From positions 6,304 through 70,303 of the forward strand of contig PFGC01000050.1 in NCBI GenBank assembly GCA_002781785.1: 64,000 nt of DNA, written 5' to 3'. The stretch is from Candidatus Kerfeldbacteria bacterium CG15_BIG_FIL_POST_REV_8_21_14_020_45_12. Lineage in GTDB: Bacteria > Patescibacteriota > Patescibacteriia > UBA9570 > XYC2-FULL-38-9. Below the pieces are notes generated by a model. The model made no database searches, was not told where the DNA came from, and was given only the letters and a program-made list of their open reading frames with translations. Positions 13,972 through 49,772 of this stretch are shown one piece after another; position 1 is the stretch's first letter; every line of letters starts with the position of its first letter. The position numbers were made by a program, and so were the translations under genes.

Positions 13972-14627
13972 TATGTTAAATAATGGATAGTGTCAAGAAA
14001 ACGGACACTAGAAAACTCATAAAAAATAGGAGAAAAGAGTAAAAAAACTATAAAGCGTCAAAGATTCAGACAGTCTAGATAATTCCCACAGAATTTTCAC
14101 TTGACTTACTATCTGGAAGGAGTAGCCTTTAAGTACAACTTAACTATGTCTACTAAAGTTTTCCAATTTAATTCAGTCCAGAGCGATATTCTCATCGACT
14201 CTGTTTCTTGGCGTCTGGAGTAGACCCTGCTTGATCTTTCAATGATTACTCCGGTCGCTCCGGAGTTTTTTATTTACTGGCTCCTTCACATTAGCTGCTA
14301 TTTAAGCGGCTGCTGCGAGGGAGTCAGCTGTACGTGCGAGTTCGCGCGAGCCGCTGGCCCCTCAGCTTATCAGTAAGCTTGATGCCATGAATGTTCGGCG
14401 CCTGCTCGCAGTCATGCTGCTGACTGCTTCACTGTGGGACGCCCTGCATGGGCATCACAGTCCCCACGTTGAGCCGTGCACCTCTCGTGTTGTCCGATAT
14501 GTATCTTCTAGATACGAATCGAACACCGAGGTGTTACGACTCCCCACCACGACCCGTTGAGCGCAAGCTCCGGGTCTCTTTTTTTGTAAAAAAAGACTGG
14601 CCATGAAGCGGTGTGCTCTAGGCCAGG

Positions 14628-15323
14628 TCAGGATTCGTCCTCGGCGACAACCGGGCGGCGCAGGCGCACCGTCGGGGCTTCCGTAGGATCGAAGGTAGCG
14701 GTTTCCGGTGGAGCCAGCTCCCGAGCGGTTGCCAGGTCGATGGACTGAAGTCCTCCGCTGGGAAGGCGACGAACCAGTTCGACCCTGGCGCGTGTCTGCA
14801 CGGGGGACTCCTCGCTCTCAGGAGCGATCAGCGGGAACTCTCGCATGACGTCGACGAGCGGGCTGGCCACGCCAACGAAGCGGTTGGATCGACCAGACTG
14901 GGTTTGGACACCGATCTGCTCGTTGATCCGCTCGACCAGGGACTCTGGGGTTTCGACCCCGATGCTGGCAGCGAACAGGTTCGCCTCCAGTACCACCCAG
15001 TCCTCCTCGAAGCCGTCGATCAGCGGCTGACTGCGTGCTGCCGGCCGAGGGTTGAAGGCCGAGGTCAGGCCGTCGCTCTGGCGGAAGGCCAGAGGAGAGC
15101 TGTCGTTTCGCGGCACGACCCTCTCCAGCCGGTAGAAGACGAGCGTCGGATCATCACCGAACACCCTCAGGACGGTGTCCAGGAAGTCCAAGCAGGTATC
15201 GTCTTCATCGCCGGTCGGGGCTGCCCCGAACACCAGCGCCATCATCACCGTGGGCGGTCGCCCACTTCGGGGAGCTTTCATTCTCACCTCCTTAGGTTGT
15301 GTGGTAGCCGAACTGGCTTCCAT
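14628..15323 (-). CDS. hypothetical protein on a high-GC islet
   Basis: 231 aa, acidic, no recognisable motif. The sequence is visibly far more GC-rich than the flanking genes. I preferred it over the antisense track ORF 14904..15398, which has an R/H-rich composition. Confidence 0.4.
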   Translation of the reverse strand: MEASSATTQPKEVRMKAPRSGRPPTVMMALVFGAAPTGDEDDTCLDFLDTVLRVFGDDPTLVFYRLERVVPRNDSSPLAFRQSDGLTSAFNPRPAARSQPLIDGFEEDWVVLEANLFAASIGVETPESLVERINEQIGVQTQSGRSNRFVGVASPLVDVMREFPLIAPESEESPVQTRARVELVRRLPSGGLQSIDLATARELAPPETATFDPTEAPTVRLRRPVVAEDES

Positions 15324-15402
15324 GCACGCCTACTAATTACTCTAACGCACTTAAAAAGTCAATTCTATTTACAGAATACTCTAAGCTGGGTATCGTGACC
15401 TC

Positions 15403-16875
15403 ATGAAAACACTTCAATGGAAAAAGTTGTCAGTTCGAAAGTTCTCAGCTTCTCGCTATGAGATAATTGCTCAAATTTTCTGCGATGATTTTTATCTTTC
15501 AGAATTTGGATCTAACGTACTTAATTTATTAGTCGTTCCAGAGCGTGGTAATCACGCCACCTACTTAGACGCTAATGAGTGGGAAGGATTCGCCAAGAGT
15601 CTTTATCAAACGGTAGCTAAAAGCCGTGAGACATTTGATAGGTATAAGTTGATGATTCAGCATGACCAAAAGCATTTTATCGGCGTGTGTGGAGACGTGG
15701 GCTCGCAAGATCTAACCAACGCTTCAGAGGAACAGTTGCTGGAGTGGTTTGAAGCTTATGTTGCAGCTTATCAGCAGTATTTCAGAACTTCCATCTTGAT
15801 TCCTTTTATAATGGAGCCGCTAATTAGTGATGATGCTAGGCGCCAGTTAGAAAATATTTTATCTGAACGCAAATTAGACGCTAAGTTCCAACATTACTTT
15901 GACGCCATTTTTCTTCCCGAAGAAAAAAATGCCATCACACAAGAACGTGAGGATCTTTTGCGCATAGTAGAAGACGCCGATCTGCATAGTCTCTCAGAGG
16001 TCGATGTCAACTTTCGTTTAGAAGAACATACAGCCAAATATCGTTGGATCCCTTGTTACGATATTAATGATAAGCCTTGGGGAGTTGAAACTTTTAGAAA
16101 GCTATATGATGATCTTCGTGCCGATCACTGGCAAGAAGAGCTAGAAGACCTAGTTCATTTTGGAAATCGCGCCACTGGTTTTCAGACAGCTCTAGACGAA
16201 CTTGTTACAACTGTTGATCAGAGGGTGTTGTTCACTATTGTTCATGATATTGTTTTTCTAAAAGATGAACGTGACGACTTTCGAAGACGCGGTAGTTATT
16301 TAATTCAACCATTTTTTTCAGAACTAGCTAAGCGAATGGGAGGCTTGTCCTTAGATGAAGTCTCGAATTTGCTTCAACGTGAGGTTCAAGTTTTTCTCGG
16401 TACCGGCACTTTGCCCCTGCGTAGTAAAATAAAAGAACGCACGGATGGCTTTGCTATGTTGAAGACGCCCAGAGAAGCTGAGGTTCGTATTTACAGCGGC
16501 CCTGAGGTATCCGCAGTGGCTCATGAGCAATTAGGTGACCAGCCGGAGCGCCAGGGTAATTTCCTGGAGGGCATCGTGGCTTCAGAAGGGGTGACCAGTG
16601 GTCCTGCTCGTCTCGTTATCACTAAAGACGACCTTGCTAAGATCCAACCGGGCGACATTATGGTCGCGGTTACCACACATCCAGACTATGTTCCAGCTAT
16701 GCGAAAATGTGCTGGTATTGTAACTGATGAGGGAGGGCTGACTGCGCACGCGGCCATTATTTCGCGCGAGCTTCAGATTCCATGCTTGGTTGGCGTTCAA
16801 ACTGCTACCGCAATATTTTCCGATGGTGATCAAATTACGCTTGATGCTTCAGCTGGATTTGTTAGAAAGTCATAA
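15403..16875 (+). CDS. PEP-utilising-enzyme mobile (phosphohistidine swivel) domain protein
   Basis: 490 aa; the C-terminal GGLTAHAAIISRELQIPCLVG matches the swivel His motif of PPDK/PEP synthase/rifampin phosphotransferase; the N-terminal ~350 aa are of unknown function. Confidence 0.6.
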   Translation: MKTLQWKKLSVRKFSASRYEIIAQIFCDDFYLSEFGSNVLNLLVVPERGNHATYLDANEWEGFAKSLYQTVAKSRETFDRYKLMIQHDQKHFIGVCGDVGSQDLTNASEEQLLEWFEAYVAAYQQYFRTSILIPFIMEPLISDDARRQLENILSERKLDAKFQHYFDAIFLPEEKNAITQEREDLLRIVEDADLHSLSEVDVNFRLEEHTAKYRWIPCYDINDKPWGVETFRKLYDDLRADHWQEELEDLVHFGNRATGFQTALDELVTTVDQRVLFTIVHDIVFLKDERDDFRRRGSYLIQPFFSELAKRMGGLSLDEVSNLLQREVQVFLGTGTLPLRSKIKERTDGFAMLKTPREAEVRIYSGPEVSAVAHEQLGDQPERQGNFLEGIVASEGVTSGPARLVITKDDLAKIQPGDIMVAVTTHPDYVPAMRKCAGIVTDEGGLTAHAAIISRELQIPCLVGVQTATAIFSDGDQITLDASAGFVRKS

Positions 16876-16960
16876 GAAAAACTGGGCAAAGATTTACCGA
16901 TTTGCCATTAGGGGGCTTGCATTATATTGAAAAGCCTGTATTCTATCTCTAGATCCAGCT

Positions 16961-18250
16961 ATGGACCAAGCATCGATATACATTCTTATAATCTTAATCC
17001 TTTTATCGGGATTTTTCTCAGGGGCAGAAATAGCCCTTTTTTCTCTATCTTCTGCAAAAGTACGCGCTTTAGTCGCACGTAAGTCTAGGAATGCTAAGCT
17101 TTTACAGCGAGTTAAAGCTAGGCCACAGCGCTTGCTCATCACTATTTTAATCGGAAACAACCTGGTTAATATCAGTGCTTCATCGCTCGCTACCGTTGTG
17201 GCGATCGACAAATTTGGCAATGCCGGAGTCGGTGTGGCTACAGGAGTGATGACCTTTTTGATTTTATTCTTAGGAGAGATTACTCCAAAGAGCATTGCGC
17301 AAAAATACGCCGAACAACTCTCGCTTAGAGTAGCGCCAATTATGCGGTTCTTGATGCTGGCCCTATCGCCGCTGGTTTGGGTCATGTACATCTTAACCAG
17401 AGGTGTCCAAGTTATTACCAAAACTGATAAGCTAACGTCTTCAGTGTCTGAGGAAGAGGTCAGGGCCATGGTTGACATTGGTCACGAAGAGGGCAGTTTG
17501 GAGCATGGCGAAAAAGAGATGATTCAAAATGTTTTCTTGCTCAATGATATTGCGGCTGAGGACGTCATGACTCCAGATGAGTACATGGTGTACTTCAATA
17601 CCGACACGCTCTTACGCGAAGCCATTGCCGTAATTGAAGAGTCTGGTTTTTCTCGTTTCCCAGTTCGTAGCGCCACTGGCGACGAGGTTGTAGGTGTTTT
17701 ATATATCAAAGATGTTTTTGCACTACTGGCAAAGCAAGCACACGCAGGTGCCACAGATGAAGTTTATGATACGCCGATTTCACAACTCATAAAATCACCG
17801 TTCTTTGTTCCTGAAACCATGCACGTTGATGATTTAATGAAAGAATTTCAAAAAGTTCGCAAGCACATCGCTATCGTTGTAGACGAACACGGCAAAACCC
17901 GAGGCCTTGTTACCTTAGAAGATCTTCTGGAGGAAATCGTTGGCGAGATTGTCGACGAAACCGACATTGACGACAAGATGATACGCCGCATCAACAAGCA
18001 CACCATCATGATCGATCCACGCATCGCCATTGGTAAAGTTAATACATTCTTTAACTCAGAGCTCAAGGGTCCCACCCACAAAACCATTGGCTGGTTGACC
18101 ATTAAGCACTTTGGTCGGATTCCTCAGAAAGGAGACGCTGTCACAATAAATGGATATAACTTTACAGTTGAGGAGGCAGACGAGCGCAGGGTGAAGCGCC
18201 TGTTGATGATTAAAACTGCTGAGGCCAGGGCCCTTGAACACGCCAAATAG
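16961..18250 (+). CDS. CNNM/CorC-family protein (DUF21 TM domain + CBS pair + CorC_HlyC)
   Basis: 429 aa; four N-terminal TM helices, tandem CBS region and a C-terminal CorC/HlyC transporter-associated domain. Confidence 0.85.
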   Translation: MDQASIYILIILILLSGFFSGAEIALFSLSSAKVRALVARKSRNAKLLQRVKARPQRLLITILIGNNLVNISASSLATVVAIDKFGNAGVGVATGVMTFLILFLGEITPKSIAQKYAEQLSLRVAPIMRFLMLALSPLVWVMYILTRGVQVITKTDKLTSSVSEEEVRAMVDIGHEEGSLEHGEKEMIQNVFLLNDIAAEDVMTPDEYMVYFNTDTLLREAIAVIEESGFSRFPVRSATGDEVVGVLYIKDVFALLAKQAHAGATDEVYDTPISQLIKSPFFVPETMHVDDLMKEFQKVRKHIAIVVDEHGKTRGLVTLEDLLEEIVGEIVDETDIDDKMIRRINKHTIMIDPRIAIGKVNTFFNSELKGPTHKTIGWLTIKHFGRIPQKGDAVTINGYNFTVEEADERRVKRLLMIKTAEARALEHAK

Positions 18251-18346
18251 GTTGACTTTAGCTCTGACATAACGTAAATAGAAGGCGACTCAAAAGTGAG
18301 TCGCTCTTTGTTAAACAAATCAACTCGCACGCCGACGTGCAATTTT

Positions 18347-19231
18347 GGAGGAGTGATGAAAATCTCTCCAGACGTGCTGTTCGGCGTGGTGGCAATGCTC
18401 GGCTTCGGCTGTGCAAACCTCATGTCGCAGCCAGTGGCGAAACAGGTAGGAGCTGCTCGCGCCTTGCTCTGGCGCACGATCTTCACGATCACGCTGTCGG
18501 GCATAGCGGCTCTGTCGCTAGGTGACTGGCACCGCCTGACGGCATCTGCTGTGCTGCAGTCCCTGTTCCTGGGGGCGGTCTCGTACATTCCGATCTACTG
18601 CTTCTACAAGGCTATTGAGCACGGCAAGCTGGGAGTAGTTGTGCCCATTGCCAACGCCTACGCCCTAATCACCGTGGCGGCAGGAGTGCTCATTCTCGGC
18701 GAGGTGCTGACGCCCGGGATTGTTCTTGGAGTGCTGTGCACAACACTCGGTCTTGTCATCATGACATGCAACCCAAAGGACTGGCGCAAATCGGACGTCT
18801 GGCATTGGCGCAGCGGAGCTCCCTACGCCCTGATCACGATGGTCACCTGGGGCCTCTTCTTCCCAGCCATCCAGATCCCAGCCAAGCAGCTCGGGGCTGT
18901 TACCAACACCTTCTTCGTGGAGGCGGCCGTAGGAGTAGTCGCTATCGGTCACGGTGTTTACCTGCGACAGTCGCTGGCACCACCAACCGGACGCTACTTG
19001 GTATTAGTTTTCGGGGCAGCCTTGGCTGGAGTAGTCGCCAGCCTCGGTATGTACACTGGACTGGCTGTTGGTAGTGTGAGCATCGTTGGCCCCGTGGCTG
19101 CGGCTAGTCCTGTCGTTGCTGGGATCGGTGCCTGGCTCTGCTTCGGTGAGAAGTTGCGCCCTGTGCAGTACCTGGCAGCGGTCACCACCGTGGCGGGGGT
19201 GGCCGGACTGGCTTTGTTGGCAGGAGGATAG
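18347..19231 (+). CDS. EamA/DMT-family transporter on a high-GC islet
   Basis: About 294 aa from the internal ATG preceded by GGAGG. It has ~10 predicted TM helices and a duplicated EamA-like layout. GC is visibly elevated compared with flanking corC and trxA. A hairpin terminator lies at ~18286-18305 upstream and a hairpin plus T-run lies after the stop. Confidence 0.6.
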   Translation, partial: GGVMKISPDVLFGVVAMLGFGCANLMSQPVAKQVGAARALLWRTIFTITLSGIAALSLGDWHRLTASAVLQSLFLGAVSYIPIYCFYKAIEHGKLGVVVPIANAYALITVAAGVLILGEVLTPGIVLGVLCTTLGLVIMTCNPKDWRKSDVWHWRSGAPYALITMVTWGLFFPAIQIPAKQLGAVTNTFFVEAAVGVVAIGHGVYLRQSLAPPTGRYLVLVFGAALAGVVASLGMYTGLAVGSVSIVGPVAAASPVVAGIGAWLCFGEKLRPVQYLAAVTTVAGVAGLALLAGG

Positions 19232-19338
19232 GCGTCGCCCCGGGCAACGCCACTTTTTTTACTTTCTGGGTCGGTAGTTGCCAGAGCCGTGATCAGCTCC
19301 TATAATACCGCTACCCTAATAACTAGTTATAATATTAT

Positions 19339-19662
19339 ATGGCAGAGCAAGTAACCGATACATCTTTTGAACAGGATGTTTTAAAATCAGAAGTTCCTGT
19401 GTTGGTTGATTTCTGGGCACCGTGGTGTGGTCCTTGTCGTGTTCTTGGTCCAATTGTTGAAGAATTGGCCAAAGATAACGAAGGTAAGCCTGTTAAAATT
19501 TTGAAGATGAACATTGATGAAAACCCAAACACGCCATCTCAGTATGGCGTAATGAGCATTCCAACTTTGATGATCTTCAAAAACGGAACTCCTATTGAAC
19601 AAATGGTTGGAGTCCAAGATAAAGTTGTATTACAAGGCAAGCTCGATGAGCACGCCGGATAA
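19339..19662 (+). CDS. trxA: thioredoxin
   Basis: 107 aa; WCGPC active site. Confidence 0.9.
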   Translation: MAEQVTDTSFEQDVLKSEVPVLVDFWAPWCGPCRVLGPIVEELAKDNEGKPVKILKMNIDENPNTPSQYGVMSIPTLMIFKNGTPIEQMVGVQDKVVLQGKLDEHAG

Positions 19663-20638: not shown

Positions 20639-20661
20639 ATCTATCCGTTAATACAATTACC

Positions 20662-33940: not shown

Positions 33941-33943
33941 ATT

Positions 33944-37583: not shown

Positions 37584-38162
37584 ATGAGCGATACTATTTT
37601 GACATTATTAATAGACCATCAGTTTCCGGCTATTTTTCTAGGCGCCGTTTTTCTTGGTGAAACGATCATCCTGTCTGCCGCCTATCTGGCTGGTCAGGGA
37701 ATGTGGTCAATCACCACAGTGTTTTGGTTAGCAATGCTAGGTACGGTTTTGTCAGACGTGGCCTGGTTTTTATTTGGGCAGTCAATTTTTTCAGCCACCA
37801 AGCGTTGGCGTGAAAAACAATTATCTTCAGAACGACTTTTAAAAAAACTGGAAAGCATCACCGGTAGCCGACCATTTTTAGCTCTGCTCTTTATTAAATT
37901 CCTTTACGGTACGCGCATCCTCACCATAGTTTATTTGTCAGCTAGAAAAATTAGGCCTTGGAAATTTATATTTTTTGATACGCTCGGTACTATTATATGG
38001 TTAGTCGTTATGTTGACGGTTGGCTGGTTGGCGGGGCGTGGTGTCTCGAACATAATTTCCGTCGTTGATAAAACTGAGTATGCGCTACTGGTCCTGGTTG
38101 TTATCATTATTTTGTATAGAGTCATCACTGTATGGACAGAAAAGAGACTCATCAAAAAATAA
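37584..38162 (+). CDS. DedA/TVP38-family membrane protein
   Basis: 192 aa; typical DedA re-entrant helix region. Confidence 0.8.
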   Translation: MSDTILTLLIDHQFPAIFLGAVFLGETIILSAAYLAGQGMWSITTVFWLAMLGTVLSDVAWFLFGQSIFSATKRWREKQLSSERLLKKLESITGSRPFLALLFIKFLYGTRILTIVYLSARKIRPWKFIFFDTLGTIIWLVVMLTVGWLAGRGVSNIISVVDKTEYALLVLVVIIILYRVITVWTEKRLIKK

Positions 38163-39121
38163 CAGCAGTAGTGCCCACCTATAACGAGGCTAGTCGGATA
38201 GCTGCTGTTTTACAAACTCTGTGTACGAGTCCAGATATAGCAGAGGTTATTGTGGTAGATGATGGCTCCACTGACAACACTGCAGAAGTTGTAGGCGCTT
38301 TTGATGTTCGTTATATACCAAGTCATTCCAATCAAGGTAAGGGAGCCGCAATGGAAATTGGCGTGCAGGCATCTTGTAACGCAGTAATCTTTTTCGCTGA
38401 CGCTGATGTGACCGGCTTAACGCACGACATGATTCATACTATTACGAATCCTGTTGTTAGAGGTGATGTTGATATGTTCATTGGTATGCGCAACCGAAAG
38501 ATTTACTATCTTCAAAAAATAATTATCTTTGTTCCGCTAGCTGGAGGTGAACGAGCTGTCACTAGGCGACTTTGGAATACTCTCCCAAACTATTATAAGC
38601 ACAGATTTCGTGTTGAGGTTGGTCTAAACTTTTTTGCACAATACTATGGTAATGGATTTCGGTTCACTATCATCAAAGGACTTAAGCAGGTAGTAAAAGA
38701 GAAGAAATACGGCTTGCTCAACGGATTGCTTCAGCGCTTCAAAATGGTGTTAAATATAATAACTGCTCAAATCAAGCTTCAGTTTGTTCATGTTCCAAAA
38801 TCAGCCAAGAACCGCCGTTTGCTAGCTCTAGTTTCTGTCCAGAGTCTCGTTGGCCTCGGTATTGGGATCATGTTAGTGATGGCTGCCTATTACGGTCCGG
38901 CTGACTTTATTTCCCTGATATTTTCTGAAGAGCTACAGGAGGATCCAGGTGCATTGTTCCCTAAATTACTGCTCCGCATTTCCAGGGCAACGGCTTGGGG
39001 CACACTCTTGTCCATTGGGGCATTTATCGCGATGGCTAACCTTATATCTTTTTTGTTGACTGCCAAAAATCTCTTAATGGTTTTTCGAGGGATCAAGAGC
39101 AAGATAGATTTGCAAGAGTAA
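38132..39121 (+). CDS. family-2 glycosyltransferase with C-terminal TM segments
   Basis: 329 aa; VVPTYNEASRI...VVDDGSTDNT GT-A motif. Confidence 0.8.
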   Translation: MDRKETHQKITAVVPTYNEASRIAAVLQTLCTSPDIAEVIVVDDGSTDNTAEVVGAFDVRYIPSHSNQGKGAAMEIGVQASCNAVIFFADADVTGLTHDMIHTITNPVVRGDVDMFIGMRNRKIYYLQKIIIFVPLAGGERAVTRRLWNTLPNYYKHRFRVEVGLNFFAQYYGNGFRFTIIKGLKQVVKEKKYGLLNGLLQRFKMVLNIITAQIKLQFVHVPKSAKNRRLLALVSVQSLVGLGIGIMLVMAAYYGPADFISLIFSEELQEDPGALFPKLLLRISRATAWGTLLSIGAFIAMANLISFLLTAKNLLMVFRGIKSKIDLQE

Positions 39122-41515: not shown

Positions 41516-42052
41516 TTGAGTATGTTCTGGATTTTAGTATTCGGAATTATTATTAGTTTTTTTGCGTGCTGGACAATCGGTGCCAACGATGCGGCTAACG
41601 CCATGGGAACCTCTGTTGGTTCAAAGGCACTAACCTTTAAACGCGCCGTCATTATTGGTGGTATCTTCGAGTTTTTGGGAGCTGTATTGGTGGGCGCCAA
41701 AGTAACAGGCACCATTAGTAATGGGATTATTGATCCAGCTGTGCTTGCCACTAACGCAGGGTACGCCATGCTAGCCATGCTGGCGGCGCTCTTAACTACG
41801 GGACTATTTTTACTTCTAGCTAGTAAGTGGGGAATTCCAGTTTCTACCACTCACGCTATCGTGGGCTCTATGGCTGGCGTTGGTATTGCTTTGGGTGGGC
41901 TCAGCGTTGTGCACTGGAATGTTTTAGGAAAAATTGCGGCTAGTTGGGTAGTATCACCTGTGGTTGGAGGGCTCATCGCCTTTCTGATAATGCGATTAAT
42001 TAAATCGCAAATCATTTATCGAGAAGACGCTGACTACCGCATGTATCTCTAA
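41516..42052 (+). CDS. PiT-family phosphate transporter half-protein (repeat unit A)
   Basis: 178 aa with GANDAANAMG and STTHAIVGSMAGVG signatures. It is one repeat unit of the PHO4/PiT fold. Confidence 0.7.
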   Translation: MSMFWILVFGIIISFFACWTIGANDAANAMGTSVGSKALTFKRAVIIGGIFEFLGAVLVGAKVTGTISNGIIDPAVLATNAGYAMLAMLAALLTTGLFLLLASKWGIPVSTTHAIVGSMAGVGIALGGLSVVHWNVLGKIAASWVVSPVVGGLIAFLIMRLIKSQIIYREDADYRMYL

Positions 42053-42738
42053 CCAAGTAATGCTCTCAAAAAATAGAAGATAACGCCGGCACACATGGCC
42101 ACGAAAGGAATCTGTAAAATCCAGATTGCGAAGGTTTTTCTAAGAAGTTTTTTGTCGAGTACAGCTTTTTCTTTTCTAGCTAGTCCTACTCCGATAATTG
42201 AACCAACAATAGTGTGAGTGGTTGAGATCGGCATACCTAGCTGTGATGCAAATAGAACCGTGGTAGCAGCCGCAAATTCTGCAGCAAAGCCTCGCATTGG
42301 TGTAATTTCTGTAATACCTTTACCTAGAGTTTTCATAACATTACGGCCATACATGGCAAGTCCCAGAAAAATTCCAGAGCCACCCAAGACTAGGACCCAA
42401 AAGGGTACACCCACACTAGCAGCCAAAGATCCATTTTTGTATATATTTGCCATAGCTGCCAAGGGACCAATGCCGTTAGCCACGTCATTGGCTCCGTGCG
42501 CGAAGGCCACATAGGCTGCCGTCAGTATTTGCAAGTAGCCAAAGGTTCTCAACACATTCAAACCTGGCTTCCCCTCCTTGGCTTTGTCTTTTCTCTTGAA
42601 ACTAAGTCCGGCATATACTGCAACTCCTACTAACAGGGCTAAAATAGCTGCCACAATTGAAGCCTCACCAAACGAGAAATCTAGCTTGAGGTTTTTTAGT
42701 CCCTTGAAGACAATAGATAAAAAGAGGACAAAAACCAC
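42049..42738 (-). CDS. PiT-family phosphate transporter half-protein (repeat unit B)
   Basis: 229 aa with GANDVANGIG and STTHTIVGSIIGVG signatures. It is convergent with the other half and overlaps it by 4 bp. Confidence 0.7.
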   Translation of the reverse strand: MVFVLFLSIVFKGLKNLKLDFSFGEASIVAAILALLVGVAVYAGLSFKRKDKAKEGKPGLNVLRTFGYLQILTAAYVAFAHGANDVANGIGPLAAMANIYKNGSLAASVGVPFWVLVLGGSGIFLGLAMYGRNVMKTLGKGITEITPMRGFAAEFAAATTVLFASQLGMPISTTHTIVGSIIGVGLARKEKAVLDKKLLRKTFAIWILQIPFVAMCAGVIFYFLRALLG

Positions 42739-42815: not shown

Positions 42816-42822
42816 TGTACCT

Positions 42823-44222: not shown

Positions 44223-44378
44223 GTAGATTACGCCCACAAATTGGGCAGCGGGAAACAGTATACCAAACCCCACGGAATCATCAAGTGTTAGTTCCAAAAA
44301 ACCCTAATTATATTGACAAAAATGCAATAAAATGCTATTGTATATAAATCAATTACAATCTCTAAAACTGTAGCTTGT

Positions 44379-45450: not shown

Positions 45451-45515
45451 AATTTGATATTTTTTTTAAAAAAAGAGAGTGAGTCACCAATTTGGCAACT
45501 CACTCAAAATTATTC

Positions 45516-45935
45516 TCAAGCCCGACCAATCCAAGAAACATTGGAGGGCAGGCCAGCTGGACGAAGCGTCCGGATGCGCTCGACGATCTCCGGAACTCTT
45601 GCTGTCAGCAGCAGGAGACGCTCACGGGCTTCTTCCGTCAGTCGAGTCTCACCGACAGCTGCGATGTCACACTGTTGAATGGCGTCCAGCTTTACTCGCA
45701 CCGTGACCCAGGGGCCACTGCGGCGAATCCTGGTAATCATGCGAGCGCTGTAGATCTCATGTCGAACGAAGTGCAGCAGGAGACGCTCCAGGTCGAAGAC
45801 CAGAATCGTGCCGTCGGCTGCGTAGATGACTGCCTCACCATCAGGCCGGCGAAACTCCCAGTCGGTCAGTTCCATGGGCCTGATGACAGTTTCACGGATC
45901 ATGCGCGCTCCCACGAGGATGGCTTCTTCTTTCAC
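45516..45935 (-). CDS. hypothetical protein on a high-GC islet
   Basis: 139 aa; protein-like composition; GC is visibly elevated; the strand choice against the overlapping 45492..46055(+) ORF is uncertain. Confidence 0.3.
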   Translation of the reverse strand: MKEEAILVGARMIRETVIRPMELTDWEFRRPDGEAVIYAADGTILVFDLERLLLHFVRHEIYSARMITRIRRSGPWVTVRVKLDAIQQCDIAAVGETRLTEEARERLLLLTARVPEIVERIRTLRPAGLPSNVSWIGRA

Positions 45936-46169
45936 GGTTCACTCCTGGTTTTTCTGCCAAATTCAGGCAGCTGGTTGGGTGAACAAAAACAAAGACGCCT
46001 CCCCGAGAGGGAGACGTCGCTGTTTCTGCACACGTTTAGTTCCTCTACGGGGTAGGCGAAGAGGAGGAGGATGAAACGAATTGTTTACCACAATACATGT
46101 GCATGAAGAGAATTTACACCTATCAACCAAGCGCGTCAAGATCAGTAGTTGTAATTGGTGTTGCAGTTA

Positions 46170-47627
46170 TTAAACCAAAATGTCCCACCCTTCATCGAGG
46201 GCCACTTTTTTTAACTCTGGATCAGGATGAACAGCCGTCTTATGTTTAATCAGCTCGAGCATAGGTCTGTCTGAGATAGAATCAGCGTAGCCATAACTCT
46301 TTGTTAGGTCGACACCAAATTGCTCAGCAAACTCGGTAACTAAATCAGCTTTGGTTTGGCCATAGTTTAAGCGCGCTACTTCGCCTGTGTAAATGCCTTT
46401 TTCATGAACTAGCTGTGTGTCAATGACTGAAAGTGCATCAAAATAGTTTTTGAATTGTTTAGCGAGCGGCTCAATAATTTCAGTTACCAATATTATCATA
46501 TGGCCCTGCTCCTTGTGGTCCTTCAAAACTGGAATCATGTGTTTTTGGAGGTGTTCCAGAATGTGTTCGTTAAAAAACTTAGCTGCTTCCTCTTCCACTT
46601 GCTTAGTTGTGTGACCCTTCATAATCGAGAGCGCCCGTTTCATTAACGAGCCATGGGGTAAGAGATGGAACTTCTCCAGCATCAACCAGAGGAAAACCTG
46701 AAAGACTACGCGACGGGGTACTAACCCTTTGGCCATTAGGTGTTTCAAGAAATCCTGTTGGGAATACCCCTTGTATAGAGTATTATCAACGTCCACAAAG
46801 ACACCAATATTATCGGGATGGTATTCTTCCATGTATTCTGGCAAGTATCTAACTGGAAGTAGGGTAATCATTGCTTGTTTAACTTCTTCTTGTTGTTTTT
46901 CAACTGCCTCCCGGAATGAAAAATCCTTTGTGACCTCAGCTGGTTCAATCAAGCCATCAAACCGAACGGTTACAGTGCCAGGTCTTTGGTGCAAAGGGTC
47001 CATGGCTATTTTTTCTAAACCAATCAGGCTCATCGGCATAATTGGAGTTTTTGATCGTATAGAAACTCTAGCGGCCCCAGTGTGTAAATAGTGCAGCTGC
47101 TTGGTGCGTTCGTAGTGTCCTTCTGGAAAAACTAAAACATTATGATGCTGCTCATTTACCGCATCAATCAGTTTACGGAGAGCCGCCTCTTTTTCATTAG
47201 CTTCAGTATGCTTCTCTTCGTCAACATTATCGCGCTGGACATCAATGGCGCCAGATCGCTTCATCCATAATCCAATCGGCCACGGAAAGCTCTTAAATGG
47301 AGCTACTAGTGAATTCAGTTCAGGTCCAACGATAGCTAGCACCAAAAACCCATCCATCCAAGAGGGGTGGTTGGAAACAAAAATAACGGGATGTTCATAA
47401 TTTGGGACATGTGTTCTCAGGTCTAACTTGATTCTCGATAATTTCAACAAGCGAACTGAATTATGGTGAGAAACCAAGCGCCAAAATCGCTCTCTTTGGT
47501 CAGGTTCAATAAACTTTTCTGCCAAGAACATTAAGGGTAATAGACAAATCGCTTGTAAGACAAACGCTGCTTTTACCCATATGGCAAAGATCATTTGGAA
47601 CCAGGTTTTGTCCCAGATTGAGTTCAT
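46170..47627 (-). CDS. lysophospholipid acyltransferase (PlsC-like) fused to HAD-family hydrolase domain
   Basis: 485 aa; N-terminal TM helix plus the NHPSWMDG (HX4D) acyltransferase motif; C-terminal FVDVDNTLY (DxDxT) HAD motif. Confidence 0.7.
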   Translation of the reverse strand: MNSIWDKTWFQMIFAIWVKAAFVLQAICLLPLMFLAEKFIEPDQRERFWRLVSHHNSVRLLKLSRIKLDLRTHVPNYEHPVIFVSNHPSWMDGFLVLAIVGPELNSLVAPFKSFPWPIGLWMKRSGAIDVQRDNVDEEKHTEANEKEAALRKLIDAVNEQHHNVLVFPEGHYERTKQLHYLHTGAARVSIRSKTPIMPMSLIGLEKIAMDPLHQRPGTVTVRFDGLIEPAEVTKDFSFREAVEKQQEEVKQAMITLLPVRYLPEYMEEYHPDNIGVFVDVDNTLYKGYSQQDFLKHLMAKGLVPRRVVFQVFLWLMLEKFHLLPHGSLMKRALSIMKGHTTKQVEEEAAKFFNEHILEHLQKHMIPVLKDHKEQGHMIILVTEIIEPLAKQFKNYFDALSVIDTQLVHEKGIYTGEVARLNYGQTKADLVTEFAEQFGVDLTKSYGYADSISDRPMLELIKHKTAVHPDPELKKVALDEGWDILV

Positions 47628-47885
47628 TATTCAAATTGTTTTTTGATTTCTATTTTCTCGATTTCGTTTATGTATTGTATCATTTTTTCCACTTTTAGTC
47701 AACACAAGGGGTTGACATTTTAGTAATAGAATGGTACTTCTAGCCGGCAAGAAGAGGTGCATTTCGGTGCAGATTCTTCTCGTTCTCATACATTTTAGAT
47801 CTCACCTCTATCGTCTTCAGGCTCTGCTTGAAGGCTCCTTCCCCACCAGCGGCAATTATCCGCTCCCACCACCACGGAGGCCGAC

Positions 47886-49685
47886 ATGGCCACTTCTAGC
47901 ATTGCCCCGACGGGCTCCCTCCAGGTCGTCGACCAGGTGTGGCGGGATGTCGAGGCCCACCGCAACCTCAGCCTGCTTGTCGGCGGCTGTGTGAAGCTTG
48001 GCGTCAACCCCAGTTCGGTCTTGGCGGCCATTGCGCCAGCCATCAACGGACTGGCGGCCAAGCTTCCGGCTGCCGCAGACCTGGCCAAGATGACGCCGCA
48101 GGGTGTCGCTTCGGCCCTCGGGTCCCTGCGGGGTACCTGGGTCACCCTCGACGAGTACAACCGCGCTGCGCTGGCGGTTGTGAAGGCCACGGGACACCCG
48201 TGGCACCTCCGAGAGATCGGAGGTTGCTCCCGGTTCATGGGCTTCGGTGCAGACGCGCTGAAGCTGATGATCAACAACCTCATCGGGAAGTACTTCAGCA
48301 GCCCCTGGCACGTTCTTGGTCAGCTCCCCCGCGGTTCCCACCTCTTCAACAACAACAAGGGGTGGGACAGTGAGTTGGTTGGCCGGGGACATGCCCGACT
48401 GTACTGTCGGTACATGCCGGGTGAATACGGCCAGCCGCCGCGCGAGCCCTCGGAGGACTTCCTCTCGCTGTACCACCTGATCCGGGGCATGAACGAGGCG
48501 CTGCCGATGCTCTGGCCGGGCAACAGCCAGGGTGGGCGGGTTCACTACCCGCTCGTGCAGCTGCCCCTCATGGAGCTGCTCGAGCAGTGGGCCCCCCAGC
48601 TGCAGGCGCGTATCGACGGAGGAGGTCTCTGGATCACCAATGCCGGTGAGGATCGTCTCATCGGCAAGGTGGTCTGGGCGGTGCCCGACTCCCGGGGAAT
48701 CTACGCTGGTCACACGGCGGACGAGTACCCAGGAGAAGATGGCATCGAGGGAGTGCGCCTGTCTCAGGCGATCACCACTCCCTGCACCTGCTGCTGCGAC
48801 CCTCAGGGCGAGCCCATCCACCACTCGCTGTTCGAGGCCGGCGAGACCTTCATGATCAATCGTGTGCGGGGCACCTTCCCGTCCACGATCGTGGAGGTGC
48901 AGTGGAACCCGACCCTCGGTGACCTCCTCCCTTTGAACAAGGGCACACTGCAGACCAGGCTGATGGAGGAGCATCGAGAGGACCAGGGCGCTCGCGCTCT
49001 GGTCAGCACGGTCAACAAGCTGGCCCTGGCGGAGGCGGTTCTCGGAGGGATGTTCCCCAACGAGGAAACTGCTGCCATCGTGGCAGACCGAGTGCATCGG
49101 CGCGCCACGGGCACGGAGACCAAACTCCTGTGGTCCCAGGCCGACATCGCCATCTACACAGACATCGTCAGCTCCGAGCAGGTGATGACTGGCATGGATG
49201 TTGGTGACTGGACCAAGCGGGTTCAGCGCATGTTCGACCGGATGCGCGAGCTCGCATCCAGGCACGGGGTCTGGCTCTACAAAGAGACCGGTGACGGGGC
49301 AGTATTCATCGCTACGGCCTCCTTCGGGCAGGTCGCGGCGATCAACTGTGCTGAAGTCGGTCTCGGCGGAATGCTGGACCACGCCCTGGCCTTCGCCTCG
49401 GAGCTCCCGGCCATCGTGCGGGAGACGCTCGGGGCTGAGATCAGGGTCGGAATGCATGTCGGTGAGAACTACTGGAGGATCCAGGGAGCGGGCCTGCTCG
49501 AGGCCAGCGGCGTGCCCATCACCCGAGCCGCTAGGCTCGAGGCGGCGGGACAAGCCGGTCGAGTGCTCGTCAGCCCCGAGGTCGTTCAGATGGCTAAAGG
49601 CCTGAGCTGGGAGTTCCAGCCCCGAGAAGACTACACCGTCAAGCACAGCAAGGTCATCACGGGTCACCTCCTGGTCGTCAGCTAG
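47886..49685 (+). CDS. class III nucleotidyl (adenylate/guanylate) cyclase-domain protein with ~400-aa uncharacterised N-terminal region; high-GC islet
   Basis: 599 aa. The C-terminal ~190 aa carry the cyclase homology domain pattern (IAIYTDIVSSEQVM..., KETGDGAVFIA, EIRVGMHVGE, GVPITRAARLEAAGQAGRVLVS). GC is conspicuously high compared with flanking genes. I preferred it over the fully overlapping antisense track ORF 47856..49697. Confidence 0.7.
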   Translation: MATSSIAPTGSLQVVDQVWRDVEAHRNLSLLVGGCVKLGVNPSSVLAAIAPAINGLAAKLPAAADLAKMTPQGVASALGSLRGTWVTLDEYNRAALAVVKATGHPWHLREIGGCSRFMGFGADALKLMINNLIGKYFSSPWHVLGQLPRGSHLFNNNKGWDSELVGRGHARLYCRYMPGEYGQPPREPSEDFLSLYHLIRGMNEALPMLWPGNSQGGRVHYPLVQLPLMELLEQWAPQLQARIDGGGLWITNAGEDRLIGKVVWAVPDSRGIYAGHTADEYPGEDGIEGVRLSQAITTPCTCCCDPQGEPIHHSLFEAGETFMINRVRGTFPSTIVEVQWNPTLGDLLPLNKGTLQTRLMEEHREDQGARALVSTVNKLALAEAVLGGMFPNEETAAIVADRVHRRATGTETKLLWSQADIAIYTDIVSSEQVMTGMDVGDWTKRVQRMFDRMRELASRHGVWLYKETGDGAVFIATASFGQVAAINCAEVGLGGMLDHALAFASELPAIVRETLGAEIRVGMHVGENYWRIQGAGLLEASGVPITRAARLEAAGQAGRVLVSPEVVQMAKGLSWEFQPREDYTVKHSKVITGHLLVVS

Positions 49686-49772
49686 ACCTGACCACAACCC
49701 GGAGAGTCTGATCGCGCAAGCGGACAGATTCGAAGGGTTCTTTTTTTACCCACATGTCACTAGTTTCTATAT

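What the first reader, a model, noticed from the sequence alone, without database searches (positions are those of the whole stretch)
14200..49700. Four short high-GC islets, each carrying a single complete gene, embedded in an otherwise low-GC genome
By eye, most of the window is AT-rich, with frequent A/T runs and AAA/GAA codons. Four segments switch abruptly to GC-rich composition with GC-ending codons:
- ~14280-15330 (231-aa hypothetical, minus strand);
- ~18296-19260 (EamA/DMT transporter);
- ~45480-46060 (139-aa hypothetical);
- ~47730-49700 (599-aa nucleotidyl-cyclase protein).

Each islet is one gene long and is flanked on both sides by native low-GC housekeeping genes. The islets at 18296 and 47730 carry their own RBS and terminator hairpin. 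Piecemeal acquisition from a high-GC donor, without an integrase or repeats, is unusual. If this organism is an epibiont of high-GC Actinobacteria, as many Saccharibacteria are, host-to-epibiont transfer is an attractive explanation. That is inference only.
Basis: partly seen in the sequence, partly recalled or inferred. Interest (0 to 1): 0.8.

Follow-up and report, generated by a model that had tools for sequence, protein, structure and literature searches.

The report
Long-lived GC-rich single-gene islets, Kerfeldbacteria
Four single genes in this ultra-small groundwater bacterium really are far richer in G+C than their neighbours, but they are not recent gifts from an actinobacterial host: at least two are old resident genes that have stayed GC-rich through speciation, which ordinary gene-transfer theory does not predict.

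Summary
Four segments have GC 0.56-0.64 against a background of 0.45. Their genes have GC3 0.63-0.82 against 0.42 +/- 0.035 (z 6-11). Assemblies of several samples reproduce all the junctions at 100% identity.

The interpretation mostly fails. The organism is Candidatus Kerfeldbacteria (Parcubacteria group), not Saccharibacteria. No islet protein has a close homologue anywhere, actinobacterial or otherwise.
- The 217-aa protein is a complete ORFan.
- The best relative of the EamA transporter is 28% identical.
- The 139-aa protein has a small family of relatives at 25-47% identity.
- The cyclase belongs to a family whose best member is 42% identical. Six of the seven members examined sit next to the same acyltransferase/HAD gene as here.

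A relative with 59-83% identical flanking proteins carries orthologues of islets 3 and 4. They lie at the same positions, with a conserved promoter and leader, and are equally GC-rich, although synonymous sites in the flanks are saturated. So the GC richness is gene-specific and long-lived, and it marks the fastest-evolving genes. The EamA islet is a true insertion, or a loss elsewhere: its site is empty in two relatives.

Similar islets are frequent in related genomes. What maintains them is unknown.

Side finds: the cyclase has a predicted H-NOX-like/coiled-coil/cyclase architecture, and islet 1 contains a candidate structured RNA.

The parts
14243..15368 (.). Islet 1 as a whole (GC 0.60). 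It holds two convergent units, listed separately below.
   Evidence: Flanking spacers have GC 0.35.
14276..14592 (+). GC-rich (0.56) non-coding-looking unit between two plus-strand terminators. It is a candidate structured RNA. It also contains a 57-aa ORF (14387-14560) with no Shine-Dalgarno sequence.
   Evidence: MFE is -137.5 kcal/mol with z = -6.8; 0 of 100 shuffles fold as well. The minus strand gives z = -5.8. An upstream terminator lies at 14248-14266. There is no Rfam match at E <= 10, no tmRNA, and no homologue in any held locus.
14628..15281 (-). 217-aa ORFan gene of islet 1. The RBS AAGGAGGTG lies at 15285-15293.
   Evidence: GC3 is 0.746. Its only match among 1.84 billion representatives is itself. 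There are no Pfam, PADLOC, PHROGs or NCBIfam hits. Gene callers give 217 aa.
18356..19231 (+). Islet 2: a 291-aa EamA/DMT-family transporter. The RBS GGAGG is at 18347-18351 and the terminator hairpin plus T-run at 19231-19260.
   Evidence: Pfam EamA scores 1.8e-25 with two repeats. GC3 is 0.679. The best non-self homologue is 28% identical and sits in a low-GC context. The site is empty in L007 and L008.
18284..18305 (+). Native terminator of the upstream CNNM/CBS gene. It marks the left border of islet 2.
   Evidence: sequence.
19278..19306 (+). Native thioredoxin promoter (TTGCCA-17-TATAAT). It marks the right border of islet 2.
   Evidence: 11 of 12 matches.
45516..45935 (-). Islet 3: a 139-aa protein of a small conserved family of unknown function. 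It has a GTG start, with AGGAG at 45943-45947.
   Evidence: GC3 is 0.629. Ten relatives were aligned (nine from the database plus the L167 orthologue), at 25-47% identity, with 8 invariant residues. An orthologue lies at the same position in L167 (47% identity, GC3 0.83).
45477..45505 (-). Terminator of the 139-aa gene.
   Evidence: 13-bp stem followed by a T-run.
45985..46075 (-). Acyltransferase 3' terminator hairpin (45994-46018) plus spacer upstream of the 139-aa gene. The sequence is conserved in L167.
   Evidence: compared with L167 8130-8215.
46170..47627 (-). Native-GC acyltransferase/HAD gene (485 aa) flanked by islets 3 and 4. It is the conserved neighbour of the cyclase gene in six genomes.
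   Evidence: Pfam Acyltransferase + HAD. GC3 is 0.43. For synteny and co-divergence.
47712..47885 (+). Cyclase promoter (TTGACA 47712-47717, 17 nt, TGG-TACTTC 47732-47740) and ~140-nt 5' leader with a hairpin at 47749-47781. The RBS GGAGG lies just before the ATG.
   Evidence: Conserved with L167 9805-10000 although 4-fold sites of the flanks are saturated. The hairpin appears in the fold; the whole leader has an unremarkable z of -1.0.
47886..49685 (+). Islet 4: a 599-aa protein with an H-NOX-like N-terminal domain, a beta-rich middle domain, long helices and a class III nucleotidyl cyclase domain (residues 415-596).
49696..49748 (+). Terminator of the cyclase gene: a long hairpin (AACCC...GGGTT) followed by CTTTTTTTAC. 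L167 has an equivalent.
   Evidence: Sequence; comparison. The simple scan did not list it, because the loop is long.
50161..50234 (+). tRNA-Cys downstream of islet 4. The identical tRNA follows the cyclase orthologue in L167.

Best explanation
The four islets are genuine chromosomal genes of a Candidatus Kerfeldbacteria (CPR) population. Each is a complete transcription unit with its own leader, RBS and terminator. They are fast-evolving accessory genes with few or no relatives, and their GC richness is a gene-specific, long-lived state, not the fading scar of a recent transfer.

**Shown.**
- Islets 3 and 4 were already in place, with the same promoter, leader and terminators, in the common ancestor of this genome and a relative (L167).
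- The cyclase gene belongs to a family that has co-diverged with the adjacent acyltransferase/HAD gene. It is GC-rich in four of six such genomes and of native composition in two.
- Islet 2 is an insertion relative to two other relatives (or a loss in them).
- Islet 1 is an ORFan gene plus a probable structured RNA.

**Inferred.**
- Synonymous sites of the flanks have fully turned over between the two genomes. An inherited islet evolving under the genomic mutation bias should therefore have lost most of its excess GC.
- Its persistence implies a force favouring G/C in just these units: selection on base or codon content of the transcription unit, or biased repair or conversion. A population-scaled coefficient of roughly 1-2 would do. 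This corresponds to the logit shift of GC3 of 0.85-1.84 in the window's islets and their GC-rich orthologues.
- The alternative is repeated replacement by GC-rich alleles.
- The same directional pressure would push amino-acid composition towards G/A/R/P and speed protein divergence. That would explain why these genes look like ORFans.

The ultimate origin of each gene is not resolved. It may be an ancient transfer, possibly from a GC-rich lineage that also has the cyclase family (L177).
For: 1. **Real and reproducible.**
2. **No close homologue for any islet protein.** See, and the exhaustive scan.
3. **Shared order in L167.** The order is 134-aa gene / acyltransferase / cyclase / tRNA-Cys / DHFR / ThyA / NIF3 / 470-aa gene.
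   - Flank identities: ThyA 83%, 470-aa 81%, acyltransferase 75%, 209/184-aa protein 66%, NIF3 65%, DHFR 59%.
   - Islet gene identities: cyclase 42%, 139/134-aa gene 47%.
   - Each islet protein's closest relative found is the L167 orthologue.
4. **GC3 in L167.** Cyclase 0.87 and 134-aa gene 0.83, against a background of about 0.60.
5. **Saturated synonymous sites.** 4-fold sites at identical residues of the six flanking genes are 23-34% identical, against 23-25% expected from composition. GC4 of the flanks has moved to each genome's own level. The islets stay at 0.63-0.71 and 0.80-0.84.
6. **Non-coding conservation.** The promoter, leader and terminator regions are conserved between the two genomes.
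7. **A conserved gene pair.**
   - The acyltransferase and cyclase genes are adjacent and divergent in the window, L167, L173, L175 and L176. In L171 three genes lie between them.
   - Pairwise identities are congruent. W-L167: 75% (acyltransferase) and 42% (cyclase). L173-L175: 47% and 39%. W-L171: 40% and 31%.
   - Cyclase GC3 against background: 0.82/0.42, 0.87/0.60, 0.77/0.47, 0.73/0.45, 0.24/0.25 and 0.28/0.22.
8. **The 139-aa family.** It is GC-rich in L167, L169 and L179, but barely so in L180.
9. **Islets are frequent in this clade.**
   - 14 per 182 kb in Kerfeld-like loci.
   - 11 per 736 kb in CPR-like ThyA loci.
   - 0 per 431 kb in low-GC loci from other, mostly non-CPR organisms.
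   - The two relatives fetched without reference to islet genes each carry their own islet at another site. L008 has a 372-aa gene with GC3 0.88; L007 has a 581-aa aminotransferase gene.
10. **Not translational selection.** IF-2, NusA, thioredoxin and GDH have native GC3.
Against: - No maintaining mechanism is demonstrated, and no polymorphism data were available.
- The sharp borders, which include the untranslated leaders, fit an inserted block as well as they fit selection on a transcription unit.
- The flanking acyltransferase gene shows no GC gradient. This argues against conversion tracts spreading from a recombination hotspot.
- Vertical descent of islets 3 and 4 rests on one close relative (L167) plus family-level congruence. 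Parallel replacement at a conserved locus is not excluded; the conserved leader and the tRNA-Cys gene could serve as homology arms.
- A uniformly GC-rich contig (L177, GC 0.68) carries a family member. So a GC-rich source lineage exists.
- Islets 1 and 2 have no orthologues, so their age is unknown. They could be recent.
- The loci fetched through homologues of islet genes are an ascertainment-biased sample.
Confidence: 0.55

Rival explanations
1. Recent, independent horizontal acquisitions. Each islet would come from unsampled high-GC donors, too recently to have ameliorated. For islets 3 and 4 this also requires parallel allelic replacement in the L167 lineage.
For: - Composition, codon use and amino-acid content all look foreign.
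- The borders are discrete and contain complete expression signals.
- Islet 2 has an empty site in two relatives.
- Single-gene transfers averaging 899 +/- 562 bp are documented in Patescibacteria, mostly between Patescibacteria (PMC12455944).
- A GC 0.68 contig carries a cyclase-family member.
- Housekeeping genes such as Tmk and UPRTase are also GC-elevated in some related loci. This suggests that replacement of a resident gene by a foreign copy does occur.
Against: - No donor-like homologue was found for the window's islet genes, and none closer than 42% identity for the cyclase. The searched collection stands for about 15 billion proteins and includes the same aquifer's metagenomes.
- Islets 3 and 4 would need two genes replaced in parallel in two lineages, by donors that are each other's closest relatives, while the promoter and leader were kept.
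- The cyclase tree is congruent with that of the native neighbouring gene.
Confidence: 0.27
2. One reading: host-to-epibiont transfer from high-GC Actinobacteria into a Saccharibacteria-like epibiont.
For: Only the high GC itself and the known precedent in oral Saccharibacteria (from my own knowledge). No tool result supports it.
Against: - The organism is Kerfeldbacteria.
- No actinobacterial or other close hits exist.
- In six of the seven cyclase-family contexts examined, the gene lies next to the same CPR acyltransferase gene.
- Orthologues exist in relatives.
Confidence: 0.03
3. GC-biased gene conversion at recombination hotspots. The islet genes would be exchanged unusually often between strains by natural transformation, and a repair bias would drive them GC-rich and speed their divergence.
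For: - An association between recombination and GC3 is reported in most bacterial groups tested (PMC4450053).
- CPR commonly encode competence machinery (PMC12455944).
- The required strength is modest, a logit shift of 0.85-1.84.
- The fast divergence and the amino-acid shift fit this model.
Against: - The borders coincide with transcription-unit ends within about 100 bp.
- Neighbouring genes show no GC gradient.
- There is no evidence of recombination here: all population contigs are 100% identical.
Confidence: 0.12
4. Assembly chimera or contamination.
For: None beyond the abrupt change in composition.
Against: Contigs from ENA, NCBI, JGI and Logan cross the junctions at 100% identity. They come from several samples and assemblers, and include a 231-kb contig and short contigs from other samples. 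Orthologous arrangements also exist in other species.
Confidence: 0.01

Closest known systems
Individually transferred genes and genomic islands in Patescibacteria (Gios et al. 2025, PMC12455944)
   Same: They are single-gene-sized segments (reported mean 899 +/- 562 bp) of deviating composition in ultra-small groundwater bacteria. They lack mobility genes, and uptake by competence is the proposed route. Islet 2 fits this description: its site is empty in relatives.
   Different: In that study the donors were identifiable and mostly other Patescibacteria. Here no donor-like homologue exists for any islet. Two islets are positional orthologues that stayed GC-rich across a divergence at which synonymous sites are saturated.
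Classical amelioration model of horizontally acquired DNA (Lawrence and Ochman 1997; my own knowledge)
   Same: Atypical GC and GC3 are the signature of foreign DNA. The shift in amino-acid composition suggests a long history under GC-rich pressure.
   Different: The model predicts decay of GC3 towards the host value on the time scale of synonymous substitution. Here GC3 stays at 0.82 and 0.87, while the flanks have equilibrated to 0.42 and 0.60.
GC-biased gene conversion, or a selective force favouring GC, in bacteria (Lassalle et al. 2015, PMC4450053)
   Same: It is a fixation bias towards G/C acting unevenly among the genes of one genome, strongest at third codon positions.
   Different: The reported effects are differences in average GC3 between classes of core genes. 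Here the contrast is about 40 percentage points, confined to single transcription units with sharp borders, and it affects accessory genes.
Soluble guanylate cyclase (H-NOX / PAS / coiled coil / class III cyclase), e.g. PDB 8hbe, 6jt0, 6pas
   Same: - The predicted domain order and chain length (599 aa) match.
- The best Foldseek hits are full-length sGC chains.
- The profile matches the coiled coil plus cyclase region of sGC and adenylyl cyclases.
   Different: - None of the 39 family members has a detectable HNOB or HNOBA signature.
- The YxSxR haem-propionate motif is not evident.
- It is a single bacterial chain, presumably a homodimer, rather than an alpha/beta heterodimer.
- In the window's copy the transition-state Asn is replaced by Thr, whereas the family consensus keeps Asn.
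- Haem binding and product are untested.
EamA/DMT transporters (PF00892)
   Same: It has two EamA repeats and a typical length of 291 aa.
   Different: It is very divergent. The best relative is 28% identical. The substrate is unknown.

Membership tests
Horizontally acquired genomic island (classical definition) | Base composition and codon use deviate from the host genome | tested here: met
   GC3 is 0.63-0.82 against 0.42 +/- 0.035. The codon-use profile (relative frequencies of synonymous codons) correlates at 0.18-0.56 with native genes and at 0.57-0.87 among the islets.
Horizontally acquired genomic island (classical definition) | Mobility genes (integrase, transposase) or flanking direct repeats, or insertion into a tRNA gene | tested here: not met
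   No significant flanking repeats. No integrase or transposase Pfam domains among the called neighbours. tRNA-Cys lies 410 bp from islet 4 but is intact and separated from it by a native gene.
Horizontally acquired genomic island (classical definition) | Absent from the orthologous site of related genomes | tested here: inconclusive
   Met for islet 2: the CNNM-thioredoxin gap is 120-133 bp in L007 and L008. Islet 1 is absent from both. Not met for islets 3 and 4, which are present at the same positions in L167.
Horizontally acquired genomic island (classical definition) | Closest homologues lie in a different, compositionally matching taxon (an identifiable donor) | tested here: not met
   Only self-hits, or distant hits at 28-47% identity. 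Most homologues of islets 3 and 4 whose context was examined lie in CPR-like genomes. The exception is L177, a GC-rich contig of unknown origin.
Class III nucleotidyl cyclase (Pfam Guanylate_cyc, PF00211) | Profile match above the curated threshold | tested here: met
   46 bits against a cut-off of 21.9, residues 423-596. The family profile matches PDB cyclases down to E 8e-37.
Class III nucleotidyl cyclase (Pfam Guanylate_cyc, PF00211) | Cyclase-homology-domain fold | tested here: met
Class III nucleotidyl cyclase (Pfam Guanylate_cyc, PF00211) | Catalytic residues: two metal-binding Asp, substrate Lys, transition-state Asn and Arg | tested here: inconclusive
   D426 and D470 are invariant in the family. 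Lys and Arg align with those of CyaB, but the Asn position is Thr in this protein, as in the mammalian C1 domain. Activity and nucleotide specificity are not testable here.
Soluble-guanylate-cyclase-like sensor cyclase (H-NOX / PAS / coiled coil / cyclase) | N-terminal H-NOX fold | tested here: met
Soluble-guanylate-cyclase-like sensor cyclase (H-NOX / PAS / coiled coil / cyclase) | HNOB/HNOBA sequence signatures, proximal His and YxSxR haem-binding motif | tested here: not met
   None of the 39 family members has an HNOB or HNOBA Pfam hit. A near-invariant His104 exists, but its equivalence to the proximal His could not be checked residue by residue. No YxSxR motif is seen by eye.
Soluble-guanylate-cyclase-like sensor cyclase (H-NOX / PAS / coiled coil / cyclase) | Haem binding and gas-regulated cyclase activity | not testable with these tools
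   Needs expression, spectroscopy and enzyme assays.
EamA/DMT transporter | Two EamA repeats in a membrane protein of about 300 aa | tested here: met
   PF00892 scores 1.8e-25 with two stretches. There is a weak TIGR03340 similarity.
Anti-phage cyclase systems (Pycsar, CBASS) | Match to a defence-system cyclase model, with an adjacent effector gene | tested here: not met
   No PADLOC match for the cyclase or its neighbours. The neighbours are an acyltransferase/HAD gene and a DUF378 gene.
Integron gene cassettes | An array next to an integrase gene (intI) and its attI site, each cassette ending in an attC recombination site | tested here: not met
   The islets are scattered and no integrase domain appears in the neighbourhood. 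The 3' hairpins are ordinary terminators followed by T-runs, and they share no sequence.

The most novel reading that the evidence does not exclude
Kerfeldbacteria and related CPR bacteria may keep a scattered set of fast-evolving accessory transcription units at GC3 of about 0.7-0.9, over evolutionary times long enough to saturate synonymous sites elsewhere. This would require a gene-specific force favouring G/C, whether selection on the nucleic acid itself or a targeted repair or conversion bias. The same force would drag protein composition and sequence along, so it would manufacture apparent ORFans. If so, GC-rich single-gene islets in these genomes are not transfer scars, and composition-based detection of gene transfer in CPR genomes would be systematically misled. 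A more speculative version (a few per cent): the GC content is held to match another cell in which the nucleic acid acts.
Probability: 0.4. Interest if true: 0.8.

Novelty: new variant of a known kind. Interest (0 to 1): 0.62.

Why it matters
- **Detecting gene transfer.** Atypical GC is the commonest shortcut for calling horizontal transfer and for guessing donors, including hosts of epibiotic CPR bacteria. Here that shortcut gives the wrong answer for at least half of the islets. They are old, syntenic genes of families found mainly in CPR-like genomes, and they have resisted amelioration.
- **Base-composition evolution.** If the persistence is real, it points to a gene-specific determinant of base composition in bacteria. 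It also suggests a route by which lineage-specific orphan proteins arise.
- **Testability.** The idea can be tested directly with the public Crystal Geyser time-series metagenomes.
- **The cyclase family.** A bacterial, single-chain protein with the predicted domain layout of soluble guanylate cyclase, found next to cNMP-binding genes in one genome, bears on how CPR bacteria sense their environment or host. It also bears on the ancestry of H-NOX-coupled cyclases.

Tried and rejected
- **The search for related loci with single proteins.** The acyltransferase against genome contigs and CNNM against metagenome contigs found nothing, not even the source genome. The second scans, with GDH and ThyA, worked. 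The ThyA loci shared only ThyA/DHFR, so they gave no synteny for islets 3 and 4.
- **Word-index protein searches.** They returned only self-hits. The 139-aa protein did not even find itself within the concatenated query.
- **Names.** The cluster look-ups returned no organism or informative protein name for any homologue, only 'hypothetical protein' and a generic DMT-permease label.
- **Family libraries.** PADLOC, PHROGs and NCBIfam gave nothing informative. tblastn of the cyclase against plasmids found no match.
- **Rfam.** No family matched any islet. There is no rRNA under the GC islets of eight related loci. One call failed on a size limit.
- **Repeat search around the islets.** Only chance-level short matches.
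- **Structure prediction.** Single-sequence AlphaFold of the cyclase was useless, pLDDT 35. Only the family alignment gave a usable model. The afdb50 fold library was unavailable.
- **139-aa family profile against PDB.** Nothing.
- **DnaA-box scan.** No cluster at the GC-skew minimum near islet 1.
- **Rejected: long ORFs as GC-rich noise.** Frame-specific GC3 > GC1 > GC2, strong ribosome-binding sites, Pfam hits and conserved families argue for real genes.
- **Rejected: translational selection for GC-ending codons.** IF-2, NusA, thioredoxin and GDH have native GC3.
- **Rejected: a defence cyclase.** No PADLOC match.
- **Rejected: integron cassettes.** No integrase domain nearby and no shared 3' recombination-site sequence.

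Full report

Yes.
- The window has GC 0.461. Outside the four segments it is 0.449.
- A 200-nt sliding window above 0.55 picks out four long segments: 14243-15368 (GC 0.60), 18295-19344 (0.58), 45475-46036 (0.56) and 47729-49769 (0.63). The only other long GC-rich stretch is the 16S rRNA gene at the right end.
- Per gene, GC3 is 0.746, 0.679, 0.629 and 0.817, against 0.424 +/- 0.035 for 56 other genes (z 5.8-11.2). All four show the GC3 > GC1 > GC2 order typical of real coding sequence in GC-rich DNA.
- The proteins are also shifted: GARP 0.32-0.34 against 0.238 +/- 0.035, and FYMINK 0.13-0.19 against 0.253.
- The GC-rich tract covers the whole transcription unit. Leaders and terminators have GC 0.52-0.59. 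GC then drops to 0.26-0.39 within about 100 bp.

Three coordinates need correcting.
- EamA starts at ATG 18356 (291 aa). The GTG at 18296 is inside the terminator of the upstream CNNM gene.
- The islet-1 gene starts at ATG 15281 (217 aa), behind AAGGAGGTG.
- Islet 1 contains a second unit (see section 7).

**2. Is it an assembly artefact?**

No. The exact cyclase protein is found on 7 contigs and the 217-aa protein on 3. Contigs from ENA (231 kb), NCBI GCA_002790455.1, Logan, JGI (17.8 kb, covering islets 1 and 2) and two short ENA contigs from other samples cross the junctions at 100% identity.

**3. Who is the organism, and where do the proteins come from?**

NCBI names the cyclase protein as from Candidatus Kerfeldbacteria bacterium CG15_BIG_FIL_POST_REV... 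This taxon belongs to the Parcubacteria group of the Patescibacteria, not to the Saccharibacteria.

The word-index searches against 5.8 billion clusters gave the following.
- The cyclase and the 217-aa protein found only themselves.
- The 139-aa protein found nothing.
- EamA found itself plus one 28% hit. That hit lies in a low-GC context of native composition.

I then ran an exhaustive HMMER scan of 1.84 billion representatives. The query was a concatenation of the 217-aa protein, the 139-aa protein and cyclase residues 1-420.
- The 217-aa protein has no relative at all.
- The 139-aa protein has nine relatives of 126-137 aa. Aligned together with the L167 orthologue, the ten relatives are 25-47% identical to it, and the alignment has eight invariant residues.
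- The N-terminal part of the cyclase has 41 relatives. Most are 550-690 aa (three are shorter) and 22-41% identical over the region queried.

The cluster look-ups gave no organism or informative protein name, and most clusters are singletons. Nothing points to Actinobacteria. There is also no match in PADLOC, PHROGs or plasmids.

**4. The decisive result: synteny of the homologues.**

The best cyclase homologue is P0006 (42% identity over the full length). It lies in L167 (GCA_054014515.1) in the same gene order as in the window: 134-aa gene (-), acyltransferase/HAD (-), cyclase (+), tRNA-Cys, a 184-aa gene, DHFR, ThyA, NIF3, a 470-aa gene.

Protein identities between the window and L167:

| Gene | Identity |
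|---|---|
| ThyA | 83% |
| 470-aa protein | 81% |
| acyltransferase | 75% |
| 209/184-aa protein | 66% |
| NIF3 | 65% |
| DHFR | 59% |
| cyclase (islet 4) | 42% |
| 139/134-aa pair (islet 3) | 47% |

The background GC3 of L167 is about 0.60. Its cyclase has GC3 0.87 and its 134-aa gene 0.83. So islets 3 and 4 are positional orthologues, GC-rich in both genomes, and the fastest-evolving genes of the block.

Non-coding signals are shared as well.
- The promoter (TTGACA, 17 nt, TGG-TACT.C) and a leader hairpin upstream of the cyclase gene.
- The acyltransferase terminator and the spacer upstream of the 139-aa gene.
- The form of the cyclase terminator.

At 4-fold sites under identical residues, the six flanking genes are only 23-34% identical, against 23-25% expected from composition. 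Each genome's flanks sit at its own GC4 level, 0.28-0.47 against 0.53-0.66. Synonymous sites are therefore essentially saturated.

Inference: on a simple two-state relaxation model, an inherited islet evolving under the genomic bias should have lost most of its excess GC3. It has not.

**5. The cyclase is an old neighbour of the acyltransferase gene.**

Further family members lie next to an acyltransferase/HAD gene in L173/L174, L175 and L176. In L171 the two genes are separated by three genes: two cNMP-binding genes with a 157-aa gene between them.

Pairwise identities of the two proteins are congruent:

| Pair | Acyltransferase | Cyclase |
|---|---|---|
| W-L167 | 75% | 42% |
| L173-L175 | 47% | 39% |
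| W-L171 | 40% | 31% |
| L176 with any other | 36-46% | 24-27% |

This is the pattern of co-divergence. Yet the GC state differs among genomes:

| Genome | Cyclase GC3 | Background GC3 |
|---|---|---|
| Window | 0.82 | 0.42 |
| L167 | 0.87 | 0.60 |
| L175 | 0.77 | 0.47 |
| L176 | 0.73 | 0.45 |
| L171 | 0.24 | 0.25 |
| L173 | 0.28 | 0.22 |

- In L171 the three genes between the cyclase and the acyltransferase are the GC-rich ones instead: the cNMP-binding genes have GC3 0.59 and 0.85, and the 157-aa gene 0.85.
- Over the family tree, a composition proxy (GARP minus FYMINK) is scattered, not clustered.
- One member, P0017, lies on a uniformly GC-rich contig (L177, GC 0.68) without the acyltransferase gene. 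So the family also exists in a GC-rich lineage.
- The 139-aa family behaves likewise. It is GC-rich in L167, L169 and L179 and nearly native in L180.

**6. Islets 1 and 2, and how common islets are.**

Two relatives were fetched through the native GDH gene.
- L007 is a Kerfeldbacteria MAG. Its GDH is 65% identical to the window's.
- L008 is a Patescibacteria MAG. Its GDH is 63% identical.

Both keep the order DAGK, bactofilin, (TrmB), CNNM, thioredoxin, thioredoxin reductase, aminotransferase, GDH. CNNM and thioredoxin are only 120-133 bp apart. This is an empty site for islet 2. Both also lack islet 1 and the neighbouring 490-aa PEP-utilizer gene.

Each relative has its own single-gene islet elsewhere.
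- L008 11390-12520: GC 0.69, a 372-aa gene with GC3 0.88.
- L007 15159-16904: a 581-aa aminotransferase gene with GC3 0.64.

I counted segments of at least 500 bp lying at least 0.12 above the locus median.

| Set of loci | Islets | Sequence scanned |
|---|---|---|
| Low-GC loci, mostly from other (non-CPR) phyla | 0 | 431 kb |
| CPR-like ThyA loci | 11 | 736 kb |
| Kerfeld-like loci (partly ascertainment-biased) | 14 | 182 kb |
| This window | 3-4 | 63 kb |

None of the islets in eight related loci is an rRNA gene. Their genes are unrelated to one another, apart from two UPRTase genes.

**7. What the genes are.**

- **Islet 2** is a divergent EamA/DMT transporter.
- **Islet 3** belongs to a small conserved family of unknown function.
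- **Islet 1** holds two units.
  - One is the ORFan gene.
  - The other, convergent with it, is a 317-nt plus-strand unit (14276-14592) bounded by two terminators. It folds far better than shuffles (z -6.8; 0 of 100). It has no Rfam match and no homologue in the held loci. It may be a structured RNA, which by itself would explain the GC of that part.
- **Islet 4** is a class III cyclase (Pfam 5.8e-12).
  - Both metal-binding Asp residues are invariant in the family.
  - The substrate Lys and the Arg are present. The transition-state Asn is replaced by Thr in this copy.
  - With the family alignment, AlphaFold gives pLDDT 91. The single-sequence model was useless.
  - The best Foldseek hits are full-length soluble guanylate cyclase chains.
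  - No HNOB or HNOBA sequence signature is detectable in any of the 39 members. Haem binding is therefore open.

**8. Explanation.**

The best-supported reading is that these are accessory genes with few or no relatives, whose high GC is a persistent, gene-specific state.

In logit terms the GC3 excess is 0.85-1.84 in the window's islets and their GC-rich orthologues. Inference: under the standard mutation-selection or conversion balance, this corresponds to a population-scaled G/C advantage of about 1-2. That is modest, but it must be confined to these transcription units.

- Translational selection is unlikely, because IF-2, NusA, thioredoxin and GDH have native GC3.
- Spreading conversion tracts are unlikely, because the borders are sharp and the flanks show no gradient.
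- The main rival is repeated replacement by GC-rich alleles from unsampled relatives. Single-gene exchange among Patescibacteria is documented (PMC12455944). It would, however, need parallel events at two loci in two lineages. It also leaves unexplained why no donor-like sequence exists among about 15 billion proteins.

I cannot decide between maintenance and replacement with the data at hand. Polymorphism spectra and a denser phylogeny would decide.

**9. Novelty and score.**

Compositional islets and single-gene transfer in CPR genomes are known. New here are the persistence of the GC excess across a saturated divergence, its link with the fastest-evolving genes, and its recurrence across a clade. 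I did not find this described in the papers searched.

I rate it a new variant of a known kind, with interest 0.62. The predicted soluble-guanylate-cyclase-like architecture and the structured-RNA candidate are separate leads.

Noticed in passing
window 14276-14592 (+): A 317-nt GC-rich unit between two plus-strand terminators folds with z = -6.8 against dinucleotide shuffles. It has no Rfam match, no tmRNA call and no homologue in any held locus. It is a candidate new structured RNA. The embedded 57-aa ORF has a signal-peptide-like start but no Shine-Dalgarno sequence.
   Followed up: partly
window 47886-49685 (+); family alignment A1: The cyclase protein is predicted (pLDDT 91) to have an H-NOX-like domain, a beta-rich middle domain, a coiled coil and a class III cyclase domain. 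This is the domain layout of soluble guanylate cyclase, in one bacterial chain. A near-invariant His104 is present, but there is no HNOB/HNOBA sequence signature.
   Followed up: partly
window 46170-49685; L167, L171, L173, L175, L176: The acyltransferase/HAD gene and the cyclase-family gene are adjacent and divergently transcribed in five genomes (the window, L167, L173, L175, L176). In L171 three genes lie between them: two cNMP-binding genes and a 157-aa gene. This suggests a functional module linking cyclic-nucleotide signalling to lipid or phosphatase chemistry.
   Followed up: partly
window 47712-47800 and L167 9830-9900: A conserved promoter (TTGACA, 17 nt, TGG-TACT.C) and a leader hairpin (window 47749-47781, a UUCG-type loop in L167) lie upstream of the cyclase gene. 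They are conserved although synonymous sites of the neighbouring genes are saturated. This may be a cis-regulatory element.
   Followed up: partly
window 45985-46075 and L167 8130-8215: The terminator and spacer downstream of the acyltransferase gene are conserved between the two genomes, more than expected for non-coding DNA at this divergence.
   Followed up: no
window ~13500-15400: Cumulative GC skew reaches its minimum here, and gene orientation switches from mostly minus to mostly plus, exactly at islet 1. This could be a replication origin, but no DnaA-box cluster was found.
   Followed up: partly
window 38113-38164: The NCBI assembly (L002) differs from the window by a small indel here (45 against 52 bases). 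The rest of the aligned 21.8 kb is identical.
   Followed up: no
window 41516-42052 (+) and 42049-42738 (-): Two convergent, slightly overlapping genes both hit the PHO4 phosphate-transporter family. This is an odd split or inverted arrangement.
   Followed up: no
window 15403-16875 (+): The 490-aa PEP-utilizer-domain gene between islets 1 and 2 has native GC but is absent from both syntenic relatives (L007, L008). It is therefore also lineage-specific.
   Followed up: no
L179 10837-13707 and 16808-18712: In a related CPR-like contig, a four-gene block that includes thymidylate kinase (GC3 0.75) and an OPT transporter gene (0.85) stands out from a background of 0.50-0.57. So GC elevation is not limited to orphan genes. 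UPRTase genes are elevated in the same way in L119 and L122.
   Followed up: no
L118 2349-2669: A GC-rich tandem-repeat stretch yields an ORF made of WLRF-type repeats. It is probably non-coding simple repeat DNA.
   Followed up: no
window 62710-64000 (-): A partial 16S rRNA gene (cut by the window end) with tRNA-Ile downstream at 62366-62440. It accounts for the raised GC at the right end of the window.
   Followed up: yes
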